Below, piece after piece: positions 3 to 16,580 of a DNA stretch of 16,724 bases. The DNA is from an uncultured bacterium (GTDB lineage: Bacteria; Schekmanbacteria; GWA2-38-11; J061). The notes under the pieces were generated by a model that was not told the DNA's origin, did no database searches, and was given only the letters and a program-made list of their open reading frames with translations. The stretch lies in the NCBI GenBank assembly GCA_964549305.1, contig CAZJVM010000055.1, forward strand, positions 1 to 16,724. Reading direction: 5' to 3'. The translations under genes were made by a program, and so were the position numbers. How positions within the stretch are numbered: the first letter of the stretch is position 1; each line of letters starts with the position of its first letter.

Positions 3-530
3 CAGGTGAAAATTTATAAGCTTTCAAATGACGGCAAGGAACAGATTCTTCATATCATAGAAAAAGGTGAAACATTCGGGGAAGCGGCGATTTTCTCGGG
101 AGGAAATTATCCCGCCTATGCGGAAACGATAGAAGACTCGGCGCTTATTTACATTCCAAAGGATAAATTCGTTGCACTCCTAAGAAAGTATCCCGACCTC
201 TCCCTTAAAATGCTCGCTTCGCTTTCAAGGTATCTTATGCAGTTTAACAAGATGATAGAAGAGCTTTCTCTGAAAGAAGTGTCCTCACGGCTTGCGGGGT
301 TTCTGATTGCAGAAATAAAAAAGAATAAAGCCGTGGAAGTAAAGGACGGCGCCGTTTTTGAAATCGGAATAAGCAAGGTACAGCTTGCAAGGAAATTAGG
401 AACGGTAAATGAGACTCTCTATCGCACATTCAAGAAGATGAAGGAAAAGAACATCATCGATTTCAAGGGCAAGAAGGTCAAAATAATAAACACCGCCAAA
501 CTAAAGGCAACTGCAGAAGGTAAGAAATAA
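3..530 (+). CDS. Crp/Fnr-family transcriptional regulator (HcpR/Dnr-like), 5'-truncated by the window edge
   Basis: The frame is open from the window start (QVKIYKLSNDGKEQILHII...FGEAAIF...YPAYAET), a cNMP-binding beta-roll. It is followed by the dimer helix (LSLKEVSSRLAGFL) and a Crp-type HTH (SKVQLARKLGTVNETLYRTF). GTG at 6 is probably internal. Confidence 0.95.
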   Translation, partial: QVKIYKLSNDGKEQILHIIEKGETFGEAAIFSGGNYPAYAETIEDSALIYIPKDKFVALLRKYPDLSLKMLASLSRYLMQFNKMIEELSLKEVSSRLAGFLIAEIKKNKAVEVKDGAVFEIGISKVQLARKLGTVNETLYRTFKKMKEKNIIDFKGKKVKIINTAKLKATAEGKK

Positions 531-898: not shown

Positions 899-1900
899 TT
901 ATCTCTCAAAATGCATATCAATAGTAGCCGGCGGCAGAGCATCCACCACAGCCTTATCCCCCAGCACCGGTTTTACAAATGACAAAAAATCATCCCAGGC
1001 GCCATCCTGAAGAAGAAGAGTCCCGATTCTCTTTCGGCCTTTGCCTTTGCCATTGATTTTATACCATTCGAGAATCTTATCTATAATTGCGGGAATCTCA
1101 TCATCAGAGACAAACTCCGCTATCCTGCTTCCGCAAATGGGATGTCTGCCGTGTTTTCCTCCGACCCTTATCTTCCACCCCTTTATATCTTCCTCCCAGG
1201 CGCCTGACGGACAGGTCCTGATACAATCACCGCAATGGAGACATTTTGCCCTGTCGAGAACAGGATGTCCCGTCTCTTTATCCGCCGTTATTGCGCCCTC
1301 AGTGCAGGTAAAAGAACAAAGACGGCATCCGGTGCAGGCATCCTCATGCCATATCGGTTTTACTGCACCCTGGAAACCTAAATCCATTTCATTTGTTCTG
1401 GCGCAGTCAATGGGACAGCCGGAAAATGACATTTTGAACTTATGGGTAAATTCTCTGCCGAAAAAATCCTTATTAATCATTTCTGCCATTGCCTGCGTGT
1501 TTGTAAGTCCGTTAGGGTTGTATTCGCATCCCGCACAGGCAGTGGGGACTCTCACGCGCGGTCCGCAGGAGGCAATTTCCTGTCCTATTGCATCAAGGTC
1601 TGCTTTCAACCTGCCAAGGTCATGAAAATTAACATAGGTTATTTCAATAGACTGGCGGACAGAGATATGAATGAAATCTCCTCCGTATTTTTTTGCTACC
1701 TGAGCAATCTTTTCAAGCCGGTCAACGGGGACCCTGCCTCCGGGACAGCGCAGACGAACAGTGAAAAGCTCCTTCTGCTTCTGTTTTATTACTCCGCCTG
1801 ATTTAAGAGTATTGAAATCAAGCTCTCCGCTCTTTCCGTCTATTTCACCATCTATTGTTACCTTCTGTTCCTTATCTTCTATAAATTTATCAGCCGACAT
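899..1900 (-). CDS. Siroheme-[4Fe-4S] nitrite/sulfite reductase family protein, AsrC/Dsr-like, with inserted 2x[4Fe-4S] ferredoxin domain
   Basis: NIR_SIR_ferr-type N-terminus (FTVRLRCPGGRV...AKKYG...HISVRQSIEI), GPRVRVPTAC, HKFKMSFSGCPIDC, NEMDLGFQG. Ferredoxin motifs CTGCRLCSFTC and CLHCGDCIRTCP. VGGKHGR near the C-terminus. AAGGAG RBS upstream. Confidence 0.9.
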   Translation of the reverse strand: MSADKFIEDKEQKVTIDGEIDGKSGELDFNTLKSGGVIKQKQKELFTVRLRCPGGRVPVDRLEKIAQVAKKYGGDFIHISVRQSIEITYVNFHDLGRLKADLDAIGQEIASCGPRVRVPTACAGCEYNPNGLTNTQAMAEMINKDFFGREFTHKFKMSFSGCPIDCARTNEMDLGFQGAVKPIWHEDACTGCRLCSFTCTEGAITADKETGHPVLDRAKCLHCGDCIRTCPSGAWEEDIKGWKIRVGGKHGRHPICGSRIAEFVSDDEIPAIIDKILEWYKINGKGKGRKRIGTLLLQDGAWDDFLSFVKPVLGDKAVVDALPPATIDMHFER

Positions 1901-2078: not shown

Positions 2079-2107
2079 TTGATTAAAAAATATCCAAATA
2101 GTAAATT
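2079..2107 (+). promoter_or_regulatory. Putative sigma70 promoter for the small ORF at 2132
   Basis: TTGATT 2079-2084, 17-bp spacer, TAAATT 2102-2107. The AT-rich context lowers specificity. Confidence 0.45.
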
Positions 2108-2131: not shown

Positions 2132-2299
2132 ATGGAAAATTTTTTAAAAATTCTTACCTCTCCGGACAACATACCGGTTGCTCTTATGTGCCTTGTCGCA
2201 ATTTATCTGTGCTGGTTCTCTTTTAAAAAAGCTTTAAAAAACGATAAACTCATCAGCGGGAACAAGGTTGATGAAGTAATTAATGAGATGGAAAAATAG
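2132..2299 (+). CDS. 55-aa single-TM protein with PDNIP motif (not in the ORF track); possible small subunit of the Rieske/cytochrome b complex
   Basis: Manual translation: MENFLKILTSPDNIPVALMCLVAIYLCWFSFKKALKNDKLISGNKVDEVINEMEK*. It has a hydrophobic helix followed by basic residues, a GGA 8 nt upstream of ATG, a promoter-like sequence, and fills otherwise non-coding space. Confidence 0.8.
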   Translation: MENFLKILTSPDNIPVALMCLVAIYLCWFSFKKALKNDKLISGNKVDEVINEMEK

Positions 2300-2317: not shown

Positions 2318-2839
2318 CTATGCCATTGATTCAGCGCCCAAGTTAAACTTTTCTAAAAGGGAAACAAGTTTTTCCCCGTTAATCAATTCAAGTTGTACGC
2401 CATAGGAAGCATTTAGAGCTTCCACGGTGAAAAAATGCGGCGTCAGCAGAATTCCTTTTAGCGCTGATTCCCCTTTCACATTGTCCAGCAGTTTTAAAAC
2501 ATATGTTGAATCAATCAGTTTATTTTTTTCAAAACATATACAGTGAACAACAAATTTTCCTCCCTTTACAGGGTCCGAATCAAAAACCAGAAAATCCGTT
2601 TCTCCTGAATCAAATATTGTTATTTCTTCAATTTCAAATCCAAGACTATTTAATAATTTTTTTATTAATTCTGTGAACTTCTCCCGCGGCATATTGAGAA
2701 GGTTACTTATCTTCCCGTTGTCCGCCTCAGAATAAAACTGTTTCTCAGGAGTTTCCAGAGTAGACTTTTTATTCATTAACAAAAAGATAATTAAACTGCC
2801 TACCGCTATGGAAACGATGCTGATTAAAAATATTGGCAT
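2318..2839 (-). CDS. Membrane-anchored Mrr-like (Mrr_cat / PD-(D/E)xK fold) protein, probably nuclease-inactive
   Basis: N-terminal hydrophobic helix, then an Mrr_cat pattern: FTELIKKLLNSLGFEI...GETDFL...FVVHC...KGILLTPHFFTVEA...LELINGEKLVSLLEKF. Confidence 0.75.
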   Translation of the reverse strand: MPIFLISIVSIAVGSLIIFLLMNKKSTLETPEKQFYSEADNGKISNLLNMPREKFTELIKKLLNSLGFEIEEITIFDSGETDFLVFDSDPVKGGKFVVHCICFEKNKLIDSTYVLKLLDNVKGESALKGILLTPHFFTVEALNASYGVQLELINGEKLVSLLEKFNLGAESMA

Positions 2840-2927: not shown

Positions 2928-3653
2928 TTACTTCTGCAATTTATCAAAAAGAATGTTCACCTTCCCATTCTCCTTTACATTTACATCGATAATCTGAGTC
3001 CCCAGAGTTTCATGCCATGCTTTTAACTGATATTTCCCGGAAGGAATATTAGAAATTTCAAAATTTCCATTCTCATCGGTAACTGCAAAGTAAGGATTGT
3101 CAACAACAGCAATATAGGCAGACATCCATTTGTGCCCCGCGTCACAGGAAACATTAATAAGTCCCGGGTTTTTAATTTTTTTCCTGACATTCTGATTCCT
3201 CATCGGCAGGGCAATATTAAACACAGTTTTTACTCCATTCAGATATCCATGCGTATTATGAAGAATGGGGTCAGCATTTGATATATCAAGATACGTGCCT
3301 GCAACCATTGCCTGAACATGGGGAACATAAACACAATTTTTATTTGCCAAGCCGGAATCACCAGTTTGAATTTTCTTACCCTTCTCAATATTTTCAATAG
3401 TGACCACTACATTTTTCACGGCGCCTTTTTCAGAAACAATTAATTTCTCATTTATTTTCTCTTTGCCGCAGAAGTTATTGTCTTTTGTAACTCCTAATGA
3501 AGTTACAGATTTGGTTTTCCCTGTAAATTTAACCTGACCGGCAATACTGCCTCCGTTTAAAACATCAACCTCTTCATAAGCCCAAAGCATAGGACTGCAT
3601 ATTAACAAAAATGCTAAAGCAATCATCGATATAGACATCCAATGTCTTCTCAT
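2928..3653 (-). CDS. Secreted cupredoxin-like / carboxypeptidase-regulatory-like domain protein
   Basis: Signal peptide (...PMLWA|YEE), GGSIAGQVKF, NADPILHNTH, CDAGHKWM, and TDENGNFEISNIPSGKYQLKAWHE (CarboxypepD_reg-like). Strong GGGGAGGT RBS. Confidence 0.85.
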   Translation of the reverse strand: MRRHWMSISMIALAFLLICSPMLWAYEEVDVLNGGSIAGQVKFTGKTKSVTSLGVTKDNNFCGKEKINEKLIVSEKGAVKNVVVTIENIEKGKKIQTGDSGLANKNCVYVPHVQAMVAGTYLDISNADPILHNTHGYLNGVKTVFNIALPMRNQNVRKKIKNPGLINVSCDAGHKWMSAYIAVVDNPYFAVTDENGNFEISNIPSGKYQLKAWHETLGTQIIDVNVKENGKVNILFDKLQK

Positions 3654-3844: not shown

Positions 3845-6496
3845 TTACTGCATAATAAAAAGATAATCTTTTAAAAGTTCTATATTTTCCTTAGGATCCG
3901 GTAAAAGTTCAATAATTTCGCCGTCTTCTTCATCAATATCAAAAAAGAAATTTGGCATCTTTGTGTTTTTCTGCAAACTCTGAGGATTGGCAAGCCATTC
4001 TTCCAGCCATTTAGGTTTCAGCCTTTCTTTAGTCAGCGAAAGGTCAGGTGCAAGTTCCGCGGGAGAAACATTTTTTCTGCCTTTTGCAAATTGATGACAT
4101 TTCCGGCATTGAAAAGCATTAAATAGTGCCTTCATCCTTTTCACTTCTTTCCCTGTGTAATCCCTCTGTTTCCAGAAATGATAAAAAACATCCTCCCCTG
4201 ATATGAATTGGAAATATTTTACTATGGCGTTTACCTGCTCGTCATTAAAATTGAATACAGGCATTTTCATTTTCAGCCACGGGCGTATTGAATAAGGAGA
4301 ATGCATATATTTAAATAGCCATTCTGACTGCACTTTTTTACCCTCGTCAATCAGTGATGGAGCTGAATAGTTTTTTACTTCCGAGCCATCATATTTGTTA
4401 TTTAAAGGAATAAGAATATTTTCTCCACCCCATCCATCCTCAATCTCATGACATCCGATACAATTATATTTTTTTATTATTATCCTTCCATTCTGGATAT
4501 TTGCATAATCAGATGAGATTCCTCTTGTAAATTTCTTTGGTATTTTGTCCTCTGTGAAGCTCTTAAGGAGAATTGTTAAAGCCTGTGTTTCATCATCGGA
4601 CAATCCAAAAAAAGGCATCTTTGGCTTAATCATCTCGGTCTCAAATATCCTCGGGGTTTTAATTTTTGCCTGAGTGTAGCCGAACCAACTTCTCTCTACA
4701 TCTGACGCGTATCCAAAGGCCAGTTCATAAAGCTCCTTATTCCCGAAGTTGCTGAGTTCCGCGCCAACCTGCCCGAGTTTTTCCGTTCCCGGAATATTAT
4801 GACACCCATAACATCCATAATAAGATATTATTTTTAATCCCTTATCGCTTTCAGCTTTATCGGATATCTTCTCTTTCAAACCATCCATCTCCCTGAATCC
4901 GGGATCTCTGAGACTATAGAGATACGCAACTATAGATTCAGCTTCTTTGGGAGACAACTTGAAATTAGGCATAAGAGTTTTTGGAGAATATCCCGCGGGA
5001 TTCAATATCCAGTTCAAAATCCATTCGGGAGTTGCCTTATTTCCGATATTTGTCAGTATTGGCGCCGCATCTCTTGTTTCATCCTTATATACTTCAATTT
5101 TGCCTATTGAATGACATCCGTTGCATCCTATGTTCGTTACCAACTCTTTACCTTTTGCGATTAGTCTCTTGTTGCCGATAACTCCTTTTTTCAGTCTATA
5201 GACATCCCAGCTTTTATCTCCTTTCAGGTTCATCAGATAAGAGGTTATGGAAATTGCCTCTTCGTCGGATAACTTAAAGTTAGGCATTCTTGTTTTTTTA
5301 TGATGCCATTTTGGATTTTTTATCCATTGAAAAAGCCATGAGGGATTTACTTTACTGCCTGCATTTTTCAATTCGGGTCCTATTTTATTAACATTCTCAT
5401 ATCCTTTAATAAAATGACAGTTAGCACATCCCAATCTTTCTCTGAATAGTGTAACCCCCTCCGAAAGAACGGGTGCCAACGGGATATCTTCTTCCAGAAA
5501 GTGGCATTCTCTGCAGGAAGATTGAATATAATCGCCTGCCAGCATCGGTTTTTCCCAGTATGCAATCGGCTTCCAGTTGTATTTTTTTTCCCATCTTTTC
5601 CCAGTATCTTCATTTGGGGGGGTATGTCCTGCGTCATAGAATGTTAGTCCGTTTCCCTGTCCGTTATGGCAGACAGTACATCCGAATTTCTCAACAGGAT
5701 GTTTGTTGATAAATACATCAAAATTAACATGGCTTTTGAAGGGTTCTTTAAAATCCTCAAATCCTTTCCTGTCAGAGGCCATATGGCATGAAAGGCACCT
5801 GTCTACTTTGAGAACAGGTTCATCAAAATTATTTTTGTCAAAATCCTGAATAACTATCTGATTAATTTGAGGGGATTTTAAAGATAGCATATTAATTTTG
5901 TTTTCAATTTCCCTTTTGTCCTTCTCATAGATTTCTAATTTATCCTCAATTTCTGCTATTTCTTTCTTATAATTTTTAACTTTTATCCTTATCTCATCCC
6001 TTTCTGCTTTTGCCCTATCCACATCGGATTCCATTTTTTTTGCTATATCGTAGAGCTTTTCCCATTTTTCTTTTTGAGGTTCATAATTCTTTCCTGTATC
6101 GAAGGCGTGCTGGTACTGATAATAGGATTCTTCAACGAGACTTTTGGCAAATTGCAGTTTCTGAAATTCTTCGGAAAACCGGGTGTTTTTTTCATCGAGC
6201 TCTTTAATTTCATCACGGTACTCCTGACTCTTTTCCTTTACATAAAACTGCAGGGTGAGTTTCTCGAGCTTACTTCTCATCTTATTGATTTCCGAGGTGT
6301 CGAGATTTTTGTTTATCTCATCCAATTCTTGCTGAAGTTTCTTACCTTCAAGATGAAAAAATTCTTCCTGATAACCTTTCCATGGCCTTCTGGTAATTGA
6401 TTCATCATAGATTGACCAAATGAAAGATAACGCTAAAAGAAGTGATAATAGGAAAAAATGCACTCTGTACGATTTTTGATTTTCACTATTATTCAT
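3845..6496 (-). CDS. Membrane-anchored octaheme cytochrome c (cytochrome c subunit of the Rieske/cytochrome b complex)
   Basis: Eight CxxCH motifs (CLSCH, CTVCH, CRECH, CANCH, CNGCH, CYGCH, CIGCH, CRKCH). N-terminal TM helix and a long E/K-rich coiled-coil region. Starts 9 bp after the cytochrome b stop. Confidence 0.93.
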   Translation of the reverse strand: MNNSENQKSYRVHFFLLSLLLALSFIWSIYDESITRRPWKGYQEEFFHLEGKKLQQELDEINKNLDTSEINKMRSKLEKLTLQFYVKEKSQEYRDEIKELDEKNTRFSEEFQKLQFAKSLVEESYYQYQHAFDTGKNYEPQKEKWEKLYDIAKKMESDVDRAKAERDEIRIKVKNYKKEIAEIEDKLEIYEKDKREIENKINMLSLKSPQINQIVIQDFDKNNFDEPVLKVDRCLSCHMASDRKGFEDFKEPFKSHVNFDVFINKHPVEKFGCTVCHNGQGNGLTFYDAGHTPPNEDTGKRWEKKYNWKPIAYWEKPMLAGDYIQSSCRECHFLEEDIPLAPVLSEGVTLFRERLGCANCHFIKGYENVNKIGPELKNAGSKVNPSWLFQWIKNPKWHHKKTRMPNFKLSDEEAISITSYLMNLKGDKSWDVYRLKKGVIGNKRLIAKGKELVTNIGCNGCHSIGKIEVYKDETRDAAPILTNIGNKATPEWILNWILNPAGYSPKTLMPNFKLSPKEAESIVAYLYSLRDPGFREMDGLKEKISDKAESDKGLKIISYYGCYGCHNIPGTEKLGQVGAELSNFGNKELYELAFGYASDVERSWFGYTQAKIKTPRIFETEMIKPKMPFFGLSDDETQALTILLKSFTEDKIPKKFTRGISSDYANIQNGRIIIKKYNCIGCHEIEDGWGGENILIPLNNKYDGSEVKNYSAPSLIDEGKKVQSEWLFKYMHSPYSIRPWLKMKMPVFNFNDEQVNAIVKYFQFISGEDVFYHFWKQRDYTGKEVKRMKALFNAFQCRKCHQFAKGRKNVSPAELAPDLSLTKERLKPKWLEEWLANPQSLQKNTKMPNFFFDIDEEDGEIIELLPDPKENIELLKDYLFIMQ

Positions 6497-6505
6497 ATAT
6501 GATTT

Positions 6506-8068
6506 CTAAATATGAAACCAGGGAGTTACCCATATATATTTAATATTAAAAACAATCCTGAGAAATATTTTTATTGGCAGAGCCATCATGGTTAAGAAGA
6601 GGAATGCCACAACAGCATATCTTATAACTCCCATTTTCCGTATAGTTTCACTCTTGCGCTTTAGAAAGTAGACTATTGCACCCAGAGAATAATACCCGAA
6701 AAATACCGCCGCCCCGAATATGGAAGCCGTAACAGAATTTCTGATGCCGAAAGCATGAGAAAGATTAATGTTGGTAAGAGCCACTGTCTTATGAGGGTCC
6801 CATTCCTGCCATGGCCAGAAGAAATACCAGCCCGGTCCTCTCAAGAAAACACCGGTTATAATGAGCCCGAACCAGAGTATAAAAAAACCGAAAAAGAAAT
6901 TTAAAATAGCGAACTTTCTCTCTTTAAACGTAAAATATCCGTTCCCTTTTGGATTGACATCAACATAAGGAATAACCATTAACCCGATGATTATCAGTCC
7001 GGGAAAAACTACGCCTGCAATCCAGGGATCGAAATATCCAAGCATTTCCTGAATCCCAACAAAATACCAGGGAGCTTTGGCAGGGTTGGGCGTTTTTGTG
7101 GGATTTGCCGCTTCGTCAAGGGGCGCATTAACCGTTATAGACCAAATGATTAAAATAATCATAACAGCAAGCACGGCAAGGAATTCCATCCTTACGAGAT
7201 TGGGCCAGACATGAACTTTTTCTATCTGCCTGATTTTCTTTTTTTGGGATTGTTCCTCTTCTGATGATATCTGTTTATCAGATGAAGCATCGAGCTGGGG
7301 TGTTGATATTCCTCCGTCTTTTCTTATCCTCCAGAAATGAAGCGCCATAAACAGAGAAGCTATAATAGGAATGAAGATGCAATGAAACACATAAAATCTT
7401 AACAATGACTGAGGCCCGACAGCGCTCCCGCCTAAAAGAAATGCCCGTTCATCGTAACGCGCTGTCATGCCAAGCTCAGGTCCAAAAAAACCCTCATGGC
7501 CGAAAAATGGAGTTGCCTTTGCTATATTTGTCCCCACGGTCACAGCCCACATTGAAAGTTGATCCCACGGGAGAAGATATCCGGTAAAGCTTAAAAGAAG
7601 TGTCAACACCAACAGCACGACCCCGACTACCCAGTTGAATTCCCTTGGCGACTTATATGAACCTGTCATAAAAACTCTGAACATATGAAACCAGACACAT
7701 ATTACCATTCCGTGGGCAGCCCATCTGTGCATATTTCTCATTAAAGGGCCGAATGGAACATCAAACATAAGGTATTTCATATCTGCGTAAGCATATTCCC
7801 CCGTAGGCCTGTAATAGAACATTAACACGACTCCTGTTACAACAGTGACGAGGAACAAGAGAAAAGTAATTCCTCCCATACCCCACGTATAGCTCAGTTT
7901 AACTGCGTGTTTTGAAACTTTTGAAGGATGCAGATGAAGAAAAACATTGCTTGTTATCTGAAGAATACGGTTCTTCGGAGTGTCAGTGTAATCATGGCGA
8001 AAAACCGACCTCCATATCTGTGAAGTGACTATTGAGTCTCTGAGCCTTTTAAAAAATGAGTTCCGCAT
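6506..8068 (-). CDS. qcrB: Cytochrome b subunit of a bc/b6f-type complex (cytochrome b6 domain fused to a subunit IV-like domain)
   Basis: TGVVLMFYYRP, RNMHRWAAH, FHMFRVFMTGSYKSPREFNWVVG, SFTGYLLPWDQ, LRFYVFHC...LHFWRIRKDGGISTP. After a charged linker: VWPNLV...APLDEAANP...PAKAPWYF...IPYVD. Confidence 0.95.
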   Translation of the reverse strand: MRNSFFKRLRDSIVTSQIWRSVFRHDYTDTPKNRILQITSNVFLHLHPSKVSKHAVKLSYTWGMGGITFLLFLVTVVTGVVLMFYYRPTGEYAYADMKYLMFDVPFGPLMRNMHRWAAHGMVICVWFHMFRVFMTGSYKSPREFNWVVGVVLLVLTLLLSFTGYLLPWDQLSMWAVTVGTNIAKATPFFGHEGFFGPELGMTARYDERAFLLGGSAVGPQSLLRFYVFHCIFIPIIASLFMALHFWRIRKDGGISTPQLDASSDKQISSEEEQSQKKKIRQIEKVHVWPNLVRMEFLAVLAVMIILIIWSITVNAPLDEAANPTKTPNPAKAPWYFVGIQEMLGYFDPWIAGVVFPGLIIIGLMVIPYVDVNPKGNGYFTFKERKFAILNFFFGFFILWFGLIITGVFLRGPGWYFFWPWQEWDPHKTVALTNINLSHAFGIRNSVTASIFGAAVFFGYYSLGAIVYFLKRKSETIRKMGVIRYAVVAFLFLTMMALPIKIFLRIVFNIKYIWVTPWFHI

Positions 8069-8082
8069 ATCCCTGATGTTTC

Positions 8083-8616
8083 CTATACTTTTAAAAAAGC
8101 GCCATTCTTATCCCATTCATCTTTTTCAAACAAAAATTTAATATTCTTGTCTATAAGCAAATTTCCGTCTTCCGAGAGAATAACTTTTACCCTTTCCAAT
8201 GCACGGGGCGCAGGACCTTCGAAATTTATTCCGCTTTTGTAAAATCCGCTTCCGTGGCAGGGGCATTTAAATTTATTCTCAAGCGGAAGCCATCTTGGGG
8301 TGCAGCCCAGATGCGTACATTTTGCAAATAAAGCATAAATTCCTTCTTCTGTTCTTACAATCCAGACCCGTTGAGATTTTATAAATTTTTCACTAACCGT
8401 GCCTGTGGGATATTCATCAGGTAAGCCGGCTTTAAAAGAATATTTGGATTTAAATAAAACCCTTGGAAACATGAACCTCACAAAAGCCGCAAAGGAAGAG
8501 AAGAAAACGGAAAGTACCAGCACCCATCCTGAGAGCGAAAGAAAATCTTTTCTAGTCCACAGATTGTTGATTTGTCCTGTTTTTGCCGGAGATTCGCTAT
8601 TCTCGAACGAAGACAT
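8083..8616 (-). CDS. qcrA: Rieske [2Fe-2S] subunit of a bc/b6f-type complex
   Basis: CTHLGC and CPCHGSGF boxes, GPAPRAL, and a Tat-like TRKDFL followed by a TM helix. GGGAG RBS. Ends 14 bp before the cytochrome b start. Confidence 0.96.
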   Translation of the reverse strand: MSSFENSESPAKTGQINNLWTRKDFLSLSGWVLVLSVFFSSFAAFVRFMFPRVLFKSKYSFKAGLPDEYPTGTVSEKFIKSQRVWIVRTEEGIYALFAKCTHLGCTPRWLPLENKFKCPCHGSGFYKSGINFEGPAPRALERVKVILSEDGNLLIDKNIKFLFEKDEWDKNGAFLKV

Positions 8617-8820: not shown

Positions 8821-9567
8821 TTACATAATTTTTCCGTCAACGGAAATTATTGTTTTTTCAATGGGGATATTTTTGCCTGAATGGGCTACCGCATCATTTA
8901 CAATCTGCTCCATTCCGAAACAGCAGGGCACTTCCATATGCGCGATAGATACTTTTTTAACATTATTCTTTTTAAAAATCTCCGTAAGCTTTTCCCTGTA
9001 AAACTGCGCATCATCGAGCTTGGGACAACCGATTAAAAGAATCTTGTCCTTTAGAAATTTTCCGTGAAATCCGGCGTATGCAAAAGGCACGCAGTCCGCG
9101 GCAATAAGTATGTGGGCATTGTTAAAGTAGGGCGCCTGCGGTGCGGCAAGGCAAATCTGCACGGGCCAGTTTTTAAGCTGAGATGTCTCATTTGTTTCCG
9201 ATGACGTAGAATCATCATTTGAATCCCTGTTGATTTGTCTTGAAAGCGCCGAAGGACATCCGCCGTGGGAATGGTCATGGCTTTTGCTTGTGCTTTCTTT
9301 CTTCCGGGGAGTAAATTTTCTTCCCATACTCTCGAGATGGGTTTTTACAGCTTCTTCATTATAATCTTCGGAAACTTCCTCTTCTTCCACTCTGATGGCA
9401 TCAAATGAACAACTGCCAAGACAGTCTCCGATGCCGTCACAAAATTTTTCCGCGACAAGTTTCGCCTTGCCATTAATAATTTGAAGCGCTCCTTCGTGGC
9501 ATTTCGGAATGCAATCACCGCATCCGGTACACTTTTCTTCATCGATTATTACTATTTTTCTTTTCAT
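8821..9567 (-). CDS. Ferredoxin-domain iron-sulfur protein (FrdX-like, the type usually associated with hcp)
   Basis: N-terminal CTGCGDCIPKCHEGA and CDGIGDCLGSC motifs, a His-rich linker ending in GGCPS, and C-terminal SQLKNWPVQ, AADC, IGCPKLDD and MEVPCC. GAGGA RBS. Confidence 0.88.
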   Translation of the reverse strand: MKRKIVIIDEEKCTGCGDCIPKCHEGALQIINGKAKLVAEKFCDGIGDCLGSCSFDAIRVEEEEVSEDYNEEAVKTHLESMGRKFTPRKKESTSKSHDHSHGGCPSALSRQINRDSNDDSTSSETNETSQLKNWPVQICLAAPQAPYFNNAHILIAADCVPFAYAGFHGKFLKDKILLIGCPKLDDAQFYREKLTEIFKKNNVKKVSIAHMEVPCCFGMEQIVNDAVAHSGKNIPIEKTIISVDGKIM

Positions 9568-13162: not shown

Positions 13163-14128
13163 TCAGATAAGATTAGGTAAATCTTTTGCAAAGTAGGATA
13201 TTATTATATCAGCGCCCGCCCGTTTTATTGAAGTAAGGCTTTCGATTATGCAGGATTTTTCATCGATATATCCAGATTTGGCAGCGGATTTAATCATCGA
13301 GTATTCACCGCTTACCTGATATGCCGCAACAGGTATGTCAAAGCTGTCTCTTGCAGACTTTATAATATCAAGCGAAGGAAGTGCCGGTTTCACCATTACA
13401 ATGTCTGCACCTTCTTCAATATCTTCTTTCATCGCGCGGATTGCCTCCCGTGAATTCGCAAAATTCATCTGATGGGTTTTTCTGTCACCGAATGATGGCG
13501 CGGATTGTGCCGCGTCACGGAAAGGTCCGTAAAAGGAAGAAGCATATTTTACCGAATAGGACATTATTGGGATATGACTGAAACCTCCACCATCGAGTTT
13601 TTCCCTGATTGCCTTTACTCTGCCGTCCATCATATCCGAGGGCGCAATTAAATCTGCTCCTGCTTTTGCATGGGACAAGGCGGTTTCAGAAAGCAGGTCA
13701 ACAGTTTCATCATTAAGTATTTTCCCTTCTTTTACAACTCCGCAGTGTCCGTGATTTGTATATTCGCAAAGGCAAACATCGGTTACAAGTAAGATATCGT
13801 CGTGTTTTTTGCGAATCTTTTCGATGCAACGTTGAATCACTCCATCGGGCGCGTATGCCTGCGACGCTTTTTCATCCTTTATTTCAGGTATTCCAAAAAA
13901 AAGAAAAGCTCTTATCCCTGAATCTTTAAGCTTTTTTATCTCGCGCAAAACAATGTCATCGGAAAGTCTGAATATGCCGGGCATTGAATCTATGGATTCC
14001 TTCCTTTTCTTTCCTTCCACAACAAAAAAAGGGTATATAAAATCGTCAGGAGACAATCGTGTTTCGGAAATCATTTTTCTCAACAGGGGATTCCCCCTCA
14101 GTCGCCTCATCCTTGTTGTGGGAAACAT
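13163..14128 (-). CDS. hemB: Porphobilinogen synthase (delta-aminolevulinate dehydratase), Zn-type
   Basis: RMRRLR, DVCLCEYTNHGHCG, APSDMMDGRV, YSVKYASSFYGPFRDAA, MVKPA, YQVSGEY. Confidence 0.99.
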   Translation of the reverse strand: MFPTTRMRRLRGNPLLRKMISETRLSPDDFIYPFFVVEGKKRKESIDSMPGIFRLSDDIVLREIKKLKDSGIRAFLFFGIPEIKDEKASQAYAPDGVIQRCIEKIRKKHDDILLVTDVCLCEYTNHGHCGVVKEGKILNDETVDLLSETALSHAKAGADLIAPSDMMDGRVKAIREKLDGGGFSHIPIMSYSVKYASSFYGPFRDAAQSAPSFGDRKTHQMNFANSREAIRAMKEDIEEGADIVMVKPALPSLDIIKSARDSFDIPVAAYQVSGEYSMIKSAAKSGYIDEKSCIIESLTSIKRAGADIIISYFAKDLPNLI

Positions 14129-14134
14129 ATACGC

Positions 14135-15667
14135 TTACTCCTTTCTAAAATAATAATCCTTTATTGCCATTGCCATGTCGGGAATCGTAAATTTTTCGGG
14201 CTTAATATTTGCTTTCAAATCGAATTTTTCAAGCTCTTTTTCCGTAACATCGCCAATTACCGCGAAGAGGGTATTTTTTACTATATTGACCATTTGTCTT
14301 TTTCCCGCAAGTTTTACGAAACTTCTCACTGCAGAGGATGAGGTAAAGGTGATGATGTCCATATTTTTCCTTATTTGCTCATTTAAAATTTTCCTGTTTT
14401 CATAGGCGGTTACGATATCGTAAAGAGGATATTCCTTAACCTTTGCGCCAAGCGATTTCAGAGTTTCGGGAAGTAGGGGAAGTCCAATTGATGAACGAAA
14501 GAGAATAATCCTTTTTCCTGATATCTCTTTTCTTTTTAATCCTTCAAGAATTCCCTTTGAAGAATATTCCCCGGGAATGAAGTCAACTTTAAACCCCTTC
14601 TTTTGCAGATATTCACCAGTTGCCTCGCCGATCGCGCATATTCTTGCATTGAGGCGCGGTGTTTTCGTACTTCGTGCGATGATTTTCTTTTTAAAAATTT
14701 CAGCGCCTGTAACGCTTGTAAAAATGAGCCAATCCGATTTTTTTATATCATCTCTGATTTTTTGCCTTCTGCCTTTTATATTCCTTTCCTTGATTTTAAT
14801 CAGAGGAATATTTATGGCGCTTCCTCCAGACCCTCTGATTAACGAGGAGAGTTTCCCGTTTCGTTTTTCAGAACGGGTCACAAGGATTCTTTTTCCGCTT
14901 AAAGGTTTAACATAGGGAAATATTTTGTTACGCATTCGCGCCACACTACCTGCAACAAATACCGCAGGCGCCGTGATATTCATTTTTTTCGAAAGAGCGG
15001 CAATATTTTCTATATTACCTTCTGCTATTCTCTGGTTTATTAAAGTTCCATCCTGAATTAAAAGAGCGGGAGTGTTTTTTGGCACACCATTTTTAATCAA
15101 TGATGATGTGATTATTTTCAACCCCCTTACTCCCATCAGAACGACGAGAGTTGTGCCTTTTTTCTTGAGGATTTTAGCTTCTTTCCCAAGTGATGCGGTT
15201 TTACCATTCGCGAGTTTTCCCGCCGTGATTACGAGAGTTGATGAATATTTTCTGCAGGTTACGGGAATTCCCGCGGACTCGGGCACTGCGATTGCAGAGG
15301 GAACTCCGGGAATAATTTCTACGGAAATATCTCTTTCAGAGAGAAATTGAGCTTCTTCCGCGCCTCTGCCGAATAAAAAAGGGTCGCCCCCCTTGAGACG
15401 CACCACATTGTTGCCCTTTTCCGCTTCACTTAAAAGCATATAGCTTATCTCATCCTGAAGGTTATCTTTTGACCCGCTTTTTTTGCCGCAGTAAAAGAGT
15501 TTTGCCCGCGGTGAGGCATGTTTAAGAATTTCTTTATTTATCAGGCGGTCATAGAAAACGGTATCCGCCTTTTGCAGCGCCTCAACCCCTTTAAGGGTGA
15601 TGAGTTTTTCATCTCCGGGACCCGCGCCAACAAGAACAACTTTTCCCTTTTTTATTTTTTTTTTCAT
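14135..15667 (-). CDS. cobA: Fused uroporphyrinogen-III C-methyltransferase / uroporphyrinogen-III synthase (CobA-HemD)
   Basis: N-terminal LVGAGPGD, VVRLKGGDPFLFGRGAEE, IPGVPS. C-terminal HemD domain: KPLSGKRILVTR, LIFTS, AIGEAT, ITFTSSSAV, IGDVT. Confidence 0.97.
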   Translation of the reverse strand: MKKKIKKGKVVLVGAGPGDEKLITLKGVEALQKADTVFYDRLINKEILKHASPRAKLFYCGKKSGSKDNLQDEISYMLLSEAEKGNNVVRLKGGDPFLFGRGAEEAQFLSERDISVEIIPGVPSAIAVPESAGIPVTCRKYSSTLVITAGKLANGKTASLGKEAKILKKKGTTLVVLMGVRGLKIITSSLIKNGVPKNTPALLIQDGTLINQRIAEGNIENIAALSKKMNITAPAVFVAGSVARMRNKIFPYVKPLSGKRILVTRSEKRNGKLSSLIRGSGGSAINIPLIKIKERNIKGRRQKIRDDIKKSDWLIFTSVTGAEIFKKKIIARSTKTPRLNARICAIGEATGEYLQKKGFKVDFIPGEYSSKGILEGLKRKEISGKRIILFRSSIGLPLLPETLKSLGAKVKEYPLYDIVTAYENRKILNEQIRKNMDIITFTSSSAVRSFVKLAGKRQMVNIVKNTLFAVIGDVTEKELEKFDLKANIKPEKFTIPDMAMAIKDYYFRKE

Positions 15668-15680
15668 AATTTTGATTTAT

Positions 15681-16580
15681 TCAAAAAAAGTCTTTTGCCC
15701 CTTTATCAATCATTTCACTGGCAAGTTGTCTTCCGTATTCAATAGCCGATTTGATACTGCCTTCTATTTCCCCTCTCAATGATTCTTTTCCGTTCAGCGA
15801 TAAAATTTTACATTGTAAAAGGAATTTTTCTCCGCTTATGCTGCAATGTACACCCACCGGCAGATTGCATCCCGCGCCTATTTCCGAAATAAACGCTCTT
15901 TCCGCGCAAACGGAGACTCTTGTTTCATAATCGTCTATCTTGCCCGTCAATTCAGAAAGCCCGGAGTTTCCCGAAGATATTTCAATGCAGATTGCCCCTT
16001 GCCCTGCGGCAGGAATGAATATATCGGGAGAAAGATATTCGGTTATCATTTCGGAATATCCGAGGCGGATAATGCCTGCCGCGGCAAGGAGGAGTCCGTC
16101 TACTTCTCCTTCCCCGAGCTTTTTTAACCTTGTATCCACATTTCCCCTTATATTTACCACCTCTACGCCTTTGCAATTTTCAAGAATCATTGCTTTTCTT
16201 CTCGGACTCGATGTTCCGATTTTGAAACTGTCTGGAAGTGATGAGAAATTTTTATCTGATAAAGTTATAAATACATCCCTTGCATCTTCTCTTTTTAAAA
16301 AAGCTCCTGTTTCAAGCCCATCGGGCAGTATTGCTGGCATATCCTTCGTGCTGTGAATGCCCGCGTCGATTTCACCCGATAAAATTAACTCTTCAATTCT
16401 TTTGACAAAAACTCCTTTCTCCGGGTCTTTGTTTTCTTTTGAAAGAATGTCTCCTTCTGTGGTTATTCCCACAATTTCAACTTCAATGCCGCCTGCGGCT
16501 TTTTCGATTGCCTGCTTAACCATTTTCGCCTGTATGAGGGCAAGTCTGCTTTTCCTCGTACCGATTCTGATTTTTTTCAT
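15681..16580 (-). CDS. hemC: Hydroxymethylbilane synthase (porphobilinogen deaminase)
   Basis: IGTRKSRLALIQ, HSTKDMP, GTSSPRR, IRGNVDTRL, PAAGQGA, AERAF, and the cofactor Cys in AGCNLPVG. Confidence 0.98.
   Translation of the reverse strand: MKKIRIGTRKSRLALIQAKMVKQAIEKAAGGIEVEIVGITTEGDILSKENKDPEKGVFVKRIEELILSGEIDAGIHSTKDMPAILPDGLETGAFLKREDARDVFITLSDKNFSSLPDSFKIGTSSPRRKAMILENCKGVEVVNIRGNVDTRLKKLGEGEVDGLLLAAAGIIRLGYSEMITEYLSPDIFIPAAGQGAICIEISSGNSGLSELTGKIDDYETRVSVCAERAFISEIGAGCNLPVGVHCSISGEKFLLQCKILSLNGKESLRGEIEGSIKSAIEYGRQLASEMIDKGAKDFF

What the first reader, a model, noticed from the sequence alone, without database searches (positions are those of the whole stretch)
2132..2299. Unlisted 55-aa membrane microprotein: candidate detached helix of the bc complex
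Seen: a clean ORF below the track's size cutoff, with a promoter-like sequence, a PDNIP motif, one TM helix and KALKND. It lies on the opposite strand, 1.5 kb beyond the bc operon. From memory (unverified), a PDN[IV]P-TM-QAxxND segment precedes the KVxxWP motif in subunit IV-like proteins of Planctomycete/Acidobacteria-type complexes. Here KVHVWP is instead preceded by the fused b6 domain and a charged linker. Inference: that helix may be encoded separately as a small subunit, analogous in role to the small Pet subunits of b6f.
Basis: partly seen in the sequence, partly recalled or inferred. Interest (0 to 1): 0.72.

Follow-up and report, generated by a model that had tools for sequence, protein, structure and literature searches.

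The report
Split-off helix subunit of complex III
This tiny 55-residue membrane protein matches a helix that many bacteria carry attached to a respiratory-complex subunit, and it turns up as a separate gene in genomes where that subunit lacks the helix, so it is likely an overlooked small subunit of a widespread, still uncharacterised type of complex III.

Summary
The ORF is real. It encodes a 55-aa single-helix membrane protein under purifying selection, with the stop at the same codon in 80 of 80 related loci. It is homologous to the N-terminal PDN[IV]P helix of long subunit IV (SUIV) of APWY-clade Rieske/cytochrome b complexes (hhalign 99.5%).

Of 401 genomes, 31 had this SUIV type. Sixteen carry the helix fused and have no separate gene, 14 have a helix-less SUIV and one separate gene, and one has both. 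In four loci the gene sits between b6 and SUIV.

A three-chain model scores 0.72 (best control 0.08). It places the helix, N-terminus out, between b6 helix B and SUIV helix G, touching the Qo-motif tryptophan. That looks like the PetG slot of b6f, but there is no sequence likeness to PetG.

The promoter claim is not above chance, and expression was not shown. The b6-SUIV fusion here is a lineage-specific extra, not the cause of the split. My paper searches found no description. This scan reported the same split before in Nitrospinota (e1-9553359, e1-6992482).

The parts
2132..2299 (+). 55-aa single-pass membrane protein, the detached N-terminal helix of subunit IV: short amphipathic helix, PDN loop, membrane helix ending in KND, polar tail
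6506..8068 (-). Cytochrome b6 fused to a helix-less long subunit IV (520 aa); Qo motif APWY; haem-cn cysteine replaced (TWGMGG); predicted binding partner
8083..8616 (-). Rieske iron-sulfur subunit
   Evidence: PF00355, E 1.3e-9
3845..6496 (-). Membrane-anchored multihaem cytochrome c with 8 CxxCH motifs
2928..3653 (-). Protein with a hydrophobic N-terminus and a carboxypeptidase-regulatory-like domain; often beside these bc operons (L033, L080, L188, L198, L199)
2318..2839 (-). Membrane-anchored Mrr_cat-like protein; recurrent neighbour of the small gene; link to the complex unproven
2079..2107 (+). Weak promoter-like match (TTGATT-17-TAAATT, 8 of 12); not above chance

Best explanation
The 55-aa protein is homologous to the first membrane helix of long subunit IV and is likely a separately encoded structural subunit of the neighbouring Rieske/cytochrome b complex. 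Shown: the homology, purifying selection, and a nearly one-to-one match between helix-less subunit IV genes and this small gene across genomes. Predicted by the model: it inserts N-terminus out and C-terminus in. Its helix (residues 15-34) packs into the groove between cytochrome b6 helix B (residues 116-134) and subunit IV helix G. Its PDN loop touches the end of helix E, Trp334 of the APWY quinol-site motif and the RGPGW loop. Its tail lies near the start of subunit IV, where fused forms are joined. Inferred: it has no cofactor ligand and works as a brace that holds b6 and subunit IV together and steadies the quinol-oxidation side, in about the place PetG takes in b6f. Also inferred: detaching the helix freed an inside-facing subunit IV N-terminus, which allowed the direct b6-subunit IV fusion seen in this lineage.
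For: Homology: hhalign 99.5%, E 3.3e-23, 56 columns; fused examples. Complementarity: 31 of 401 genomes had a subunit IV above 300 bits. Sixteen fused-only genomes each gave exactly one helix match, the fused one; 13 split genomes each gave one separate gene, as did G000; G003 has one operon of each kind and one match of each kind. Twenty genomes with no or only distant subunit IV gave no helix match. Second sample: 4 of 121 genomes had this subunit IV, all helix-less, all 4 with the small gene, and none of the other 117 (one of the 4 was the seed). Nitrospinota-centred sample: 43 of 45. Gene order b6 - small gene - subunit IV in L080, L133, L134, L156. Model score 0.72, best control 0.08; that mark was reached by 116 of 157 solved complexes and 2 of 215 mismatched pairs; contacts agree at least 93%, partner pLDDT at least 75. 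No PDB sequence matches the helix profile at E up to 10. Contact positions in residues 14-34 are more conserved than non-contact ones (0.71 over 15 against 0.56 over 6). Selection.
Against: No transcript or peptide evidence, and weak promoter and ribosome-binding signals in this genome. The gene is often unlinked: only 18 of 80 loci hold a full b6 or subunit IV gene in the flanks fetched. Of 40 genomes picked for carrying the small gene, 5 gave no subunit IV match and 1 only a distant one (completeness not given). Two of 45 helix-less genomes lacked the small gene and one had two subunit IV genes but one small gene. More distant subunit IV proteins (265 bits or less) have no detectable helix at all, so such complexes can exist without it. 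The model was run with my own alignments and three chains, unlike the calibration; half of a split gene tends to pass; the partner alignment included fused-form segments; b6f structures could bias the placement. I chose the 300-bit cut after seeing the gap in scores (309 to 264). Related genomes are not independent, and three genomes occur in both.
Confidence: 0.87

Rival explanations
1. It binds the complex only transiently, as an assembly factor or a tuning subunit expressed from its own promoter, and is not a fixed part of the mature enzyme.
For: It is often encoded away from the operon (18 of 80 loci near b6 or subunit IV). Here it is a lone gene between a divergent and a convergent neighbour, so it needs its own control.
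Against: In 16 genomes the same helix is covalently part of subunit IV. The modelled interface is large, 103-107 contacts with both chains.
Confidence: 0.07
2. After splitting off, it became the partner of the membrane-anchored Mrr-like protein next door and acts in a two-gene module apart from the bc complex.
For: The Mrr-like gene lies directly downstream in 10 of 13 split genomes of the broad sample, some far from the bc operon. It was found in 11 of 13 split against 1 of 16 fused-only genomes.
Against: It is absent next to the small gene in Binatia-type loci and where the gene sits inside the operon. Presence of the small gene follows the helix-less subunit IV, not the Mrr-like gene. One search used a single-protein query, so distant copies may be missed.
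Confidence: 0.04
3. The family is real but this copy is a silent or decaying relic, left inverted beside the operon.
For: Weak promoter and ribosome-binding signals; inverted relative to the co-oriented order seen in other lineages.
Against: Intact frame of exact family length; against L085 pN is 0.18 and pS 0.94; the same inverted layout occurs in L042, L084 and L085.
Confidence: 0.02

Closest known systems
APWY-clade Rieske/cytochrome b complexes (Kao and Hunte 2014, PMC4122944; passages read) and the octahaem bc-like operon of Nitrospina gracilis (Lucker 2013, PMC3578206; passages read); subfamily G of Dibrova 2017 (PMC5600118; passages and most of section 8 read) is the probable match
   Same: Rieske + b6-type cytochrome b + subunit IV with APWY + octahaem cytochrome c.
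   Different: None of the passages I read mentions an N-terminal PDN helix or a separate small subunit. Here b6 and subunit IV are fused and the haem-cn cysteine is lost. Kao and Hunte state that no APWY complex had been characterised.
PetG and the PetG/L/M/N small subunits of cytochrome b6f (PMC7908018, PMC12112970; passages read)
   Same: Single short membrane helix on the outside of the b6-subunit IV core. The model has it touching helix G and Tyr104 of the subunit IV part, which aligns with Tyr124 of Chlamydomonas subunit IV; Tyr124 lies between helix G and PetG and contacts PetG Phe22.
   Different: No sequence likeness: hhalign 0.4%, within the range of unrelated helices; 0 of 79 members hit PF02529. 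It is longer (55 aa against a 36-position PetG profile) and exists as a fused part of subunit IV. I did not look for fused forms of PetG.
Subunit IIa of B-type (ba3) haem-copper oxidases (Prunetti 2011, PMC3128077; abstract and outline read)
   Same: Same logic: an overlooked small single-helix gene stands in for the N-terminal helix that is part of the larger subunit in related enzymes.
   Different: Different enzyme family; IIa was shown by protein chemistry, this one is not; sequence likeness was not tested directly.
Kuenenia Kuste4569-74 and Kustd1480-85 complexes (PMC12954380; passages and section 3.3 read)
   Same: b6 + subunit IV-like protein + multihaem cytochrome c; subunit IV modelled with five helices instead of three.
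   Different: The fused form modelled here has six long helices, the extra one being this N-terminal helix. Whether Kuenenia encodes the helix was not tested.

Membership tests
N-terminal PDN helix of long APWY-type subunit IV | Profile homology to the N-terminal segment of fused subunit IV | tested here: met
   (99.5%, E 3.3e-23)
N-terminal PDN helix of long APWY-type subunit IV | D12, N13 and D38 invariant; P11, P15, M19, W28 nearly invariant across standalone and fused forms | tested here: met
   (79 sequences); all present in P0001
N-terminal PDN helix of long APWY-type subunit IV | Separate gene present where subunit IV lacks the helix, absent where it is fused | tested here: met
   exceptions listed in the Against line
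Subunit of the mature complex | Co-purifies stoichiometrically with cytochrome b | not testable with these tools
   only a model
PetG (PF02529) | Sequence or profile similarity to PetG | tested here: not met
PetG (PF02529) | Sits beside subunit IV helix G and the fg loop | tested here: inconclusive
   model contacts mapped through a sequence alignment with a gap at that loop onto paper passages; no superposition was possible
APWY-clade Rieske/cytochrome b complex (parent) | Qo motif APWY with Rieske and c-type cytochrome genes | tested here: met
b6f-type complexes with haem cn (parent) | CxGG motif in cytochrome b6 | tested here: not met
   TWGMGG in the window, L089, L090 and L080; cysteine present in the other loci printed

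The most novel reading that the evidence does not exclude
Non-photosynthetic APWY-type complexes have their own counterpart of the b6f picket fence: a helix in the PetG slot that braces the quinol-oxidation site. It switches between being part of subunit IV and being a free subunit, and its release opened the way to b6-subunit IV fusion with loss of haem cn. The co-occurring Mrr-like membrane protein may be a further accessory part of split complexes.
Probability: 0.4. Interest if true: 0.68.

Novelty: new variant of a known kind. Interest (0 to 1): 0.52.

Why it matters
These complexes are candidates for forward or reverse electron transport in Nitrospinota (major marine nitrite oxidisers), Binatia and other uncultured groups, and no close relative appeared in my PDB searches. 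Anyone expressing, purifying or modelling one from the annotated operon would leave out a probable subunit whose gene is small, unnamed and often elsewhere in the genome. It also gives a clean case of a helix moving between fused and free states in a respiratory complex. It suggests that a small peripheral helix beside helix G is not limited to b6f, where a review calls the picket fence unique (PMC7908018).

Tried and rejected
Pfam, NCBIfam and PADLOC gave no family for the 55-aa protein. PDB sequence search with the helix profile found nothing at E up to 10. Fold searches with the fused model gave only weak b6f subunit IV and bc1 rows (best E 0.034) and no Z of 8 or more, so they say nothing on the helix position. 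PetG homology was rejected. ESM Atlas with homologue P0003 returned only clusters of 55-58 aa hypothetical proteins. Alignment A4 (b6 and subunit IV fragments against the fused protein) was misaligned and dropped; A6 and A7 were used instead. Number and direction of splits is unresolved: quick trees need 6 changes (69 rows) and 7 changes (34-row subset), but starred branches force only 1 and the AU test does not reject one split clade (p 0.375). The idea that it replaces bc1 helix H or the b6f chlorophyll site is less likely, because the listed contacts include none on helix F; this is not excluded. Paper searches without a description of this subunit; these cover open-licence papers only. Dibrova 2013 and ten Brink 2013 were not read (an id I recalled led to an unrelated paper). 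No supplements were read; Lucker Table S1, Dibrova Fig. S1 and the Kao and Hunte tables could bear on the novelty claim. PMC1540425 (passages) was not used.

Full report
Observation. The frame 2132-2299 (+) gives a 55-aa protein with PDNIP at 11-15, one hydrophobic stretch and KALKND. It lies between a divergent nitrite/sulfite-reductase-like gene (899-1900) and a run of minus-strand genes: Rieske, cytochrome b, octahaem cytochrome c, a carboxypeptidase-regulatory-like protein and an Mrr_cat-like membrane protein that ends 18 nt from its stop. It is the only good match in this genome. The promoter-like sequence is not above chance (8 sites against 9.1 expected). The nearest titled locus with the same layout is L042, from Candidatus Schekmanbacteria, so the window probably comes from that lineage; this is an inference.

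It is a real gene family. A near-length search returned 17 homologues of 55-62 aa, unnamed apart from one doubtful label. In all 80 the frame stops at the same codon. Among 39 sequences, the 82 of 741 pairs with usable dS give a median dN/dS of 0.28 (maximum 0.83), and mismatches concentrate at third codon positions (0.35, 0.20, 0.58).

It is the front end of subunit IV. Searching longer proteins gave 153 hits, of which 120 were listed, many with the cytochrome b C-terminal domain. P0031, P0034 and P0035 begin with this very sequence and run on into the KxxxWP start of subunit IV. The standalone and fused profiles align at 99.5%. In an AlphaFold2 model of fused P0035 (pLDDT 80.5) the segment is a short helix (2-8), the PDN loop and a long helix (13-42).

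Fused and free forms are complementary. I searched 401 genomes with a profile of the whole fused protein. Because only six candidates per genome were scored, I searched 49 genomes again with the helix profile. Thirty-one genomes had a subunit IV above 300 bits, a cut I set at a gap in the scores. Sixteen have the helix fused and no second match. Fourteen have a helix-less subunit IV and one separate gene; for G468 the subunit IV locus was not fetched, and three of the separate genes (G297, G325, G468) may have an N-terminal extension. G003 has one operon of each kind. Twenty genomes with no or distant subunit IV had no helix match, including G001 (same genus) and G002 (same family). A second sample gave 4 of 4 against 0 of 117, and a Nitrospinota-centred sample 43 of 45. 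In 40 genomes chosen for the small gene, 35 gave a subunit IV match; I fetched 30 and all were helix-less. Five had no match and one only a distant match. In L080, L133, L134 and L156 the small gene sits between b6 and subunit IV, exactly where the fused helix is encoded. Related genomes inflate these counts, and three genomes appear in two samples.

Where it sits. I folded the b6 part (residues 1-262), the subunit IV part (275-520) and the peptide together. The score was 0.72 against a best control of 0.08. That mark was reached by 116 of 157 solved complexes and 2 of 215 mismatches, counts that hold only roughly here. Contacts agree at least 93% and partner pLDDT is at least 75. Replacing b6 dropped the score to 0.08. 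Peptide residues 15-34 run parallel to b6 helix B (116-134, which carries His114 and His128; their role as haem ligands is from established knowledge) and antiparallel to subunit IV helix G, which implies N-out, C-in. Residue 16 touches Trp334 of APWY. Residues 39-42 and 143-149 of the subunit IV chain and the fg loop (104-109) are also in the interface. Halves of split genes tend to pass such tests. No solved structure has this helix by sequence, but b6f structures could still guide the placement.

Mechanism. The family has no conserved cysteine or histidine, so a structural role is the simplest reading: a brace across the b6-subunit IV joint at the quinol-oxidation side. Tyr104 of the subunit IV chain aligns with Tyr124 of Chlamydomonas subunit IV, which lies between helix G and PetG (PMC12112970). 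So the helix may fill the PetG slot, without sequence likeness to PetG. Topology adds an inference. b6 ends on the inner side and this helix starts on the outer side, so b6 cannot fuse directly to a helix-bearing subunit IV. The window's fusion lacks the helix, while P0139, which keeps it, has three extra hydrophobic stretches in between (my reading). The three b6-subunit IV fusions printed (window, L089, L090) have lost the haem-cn cysteine, as Dibrova 2017 describes for fusions; L080 has lost it without fusion. The tree cannot say whether the split arose once or several times.

Comparison and novelty. The parent complex belongs to the APWY clade and matches the octahaem operon described for Nitrospina, Kuenenia and Methylomirabilis. 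The closest precedent for the small gene is subunit IIa of ba3 oxidases (abstract). Eight paper searches found no description of this helix or subunit, within the limits of an open-licence library and without supplements. Two earlier notes of this scan report the same split in Nitrospinota. I had reached the same reading before seeing them, and they are not independent support. This report adds the genome-wide complementarity, the interface model and the link to b6-subunit IV fusion. Verdict: a real, undescribed small protein family and probable subunit; a new variant of a known kind; interest 0.52.

Noticed in passing
window 2318-2839 (-); L158, L161, L163-L168, L171, L190: A membrane-anchored Mrr_cat-like protein follows the small gene directly in 10 of 13 split genomes of the broad sample and was found in only 1 of 16 fused-only genomes. 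By eye it lacks the (E/Q)xK lysine of active nucleases (motif recalled), so it may be a catalytically dead accessory protein of the complex.
   Followed up: partly
window 6506-8068 (-), residues 61-66; L089, L090, L080: The haem-cn motif reads TWGMGG instead of TWCMGG in the b6-subunit IV fusions of this order, and in one unfused b6 (L080).
   Followed up: partly
G000:C77:3721-7523 and G000:C88:1819-2752: This genome has two further Rieske/cytochrome b loci. C77 has a fused cytochrome b with a distant subunit IV and a multihaem cytochrome c. G003 has four subunit IV-like matches.
   Followed up: partly
L007 10001-12952 and similar Binatia-type loci: In Binatia-type genomes the small gene lies far from the bc operon, in a conserved run upstream of a TPR-repeat protein, a 159-aa protein and a gene I read by eye as carboxylase-like.
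   Followed up: no
L168 1351-1659, L171 1501-1851, L162 1453-1791; P0038, P0102, P0105, P0139: Longer versions exist: separate genes that may carry an extra N-terminal hydrophobic stretch, and fused subunit IV proteins with one or more further helices ahead of the PDN helix.
   Followed up: no
G578:C89:273-1932: A genome in the Nitrospinota-centred sample has subunit IV in a 536-aa frame facing the small gene, possibly another b6-subunit IV fusion.
   Followed up: no
window 6-530 (+), 899-1900 (-), 8821-9567 (-): A Crp/Fnr-type regulator, a single-module nitrite/sulfite-reductase-like 4Fe-4S protein and a ferredoxin-domain protein flank the bc genes; 13163-16580 looks by eye like tetrapyrrole synthesis genes (not scanned).
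   Followed up: no
L157 (G512): The fused subunit IV gene is interrupted near its 3' end (stops inside the match), either an assembly error or a frameshift.
   Followed up: no
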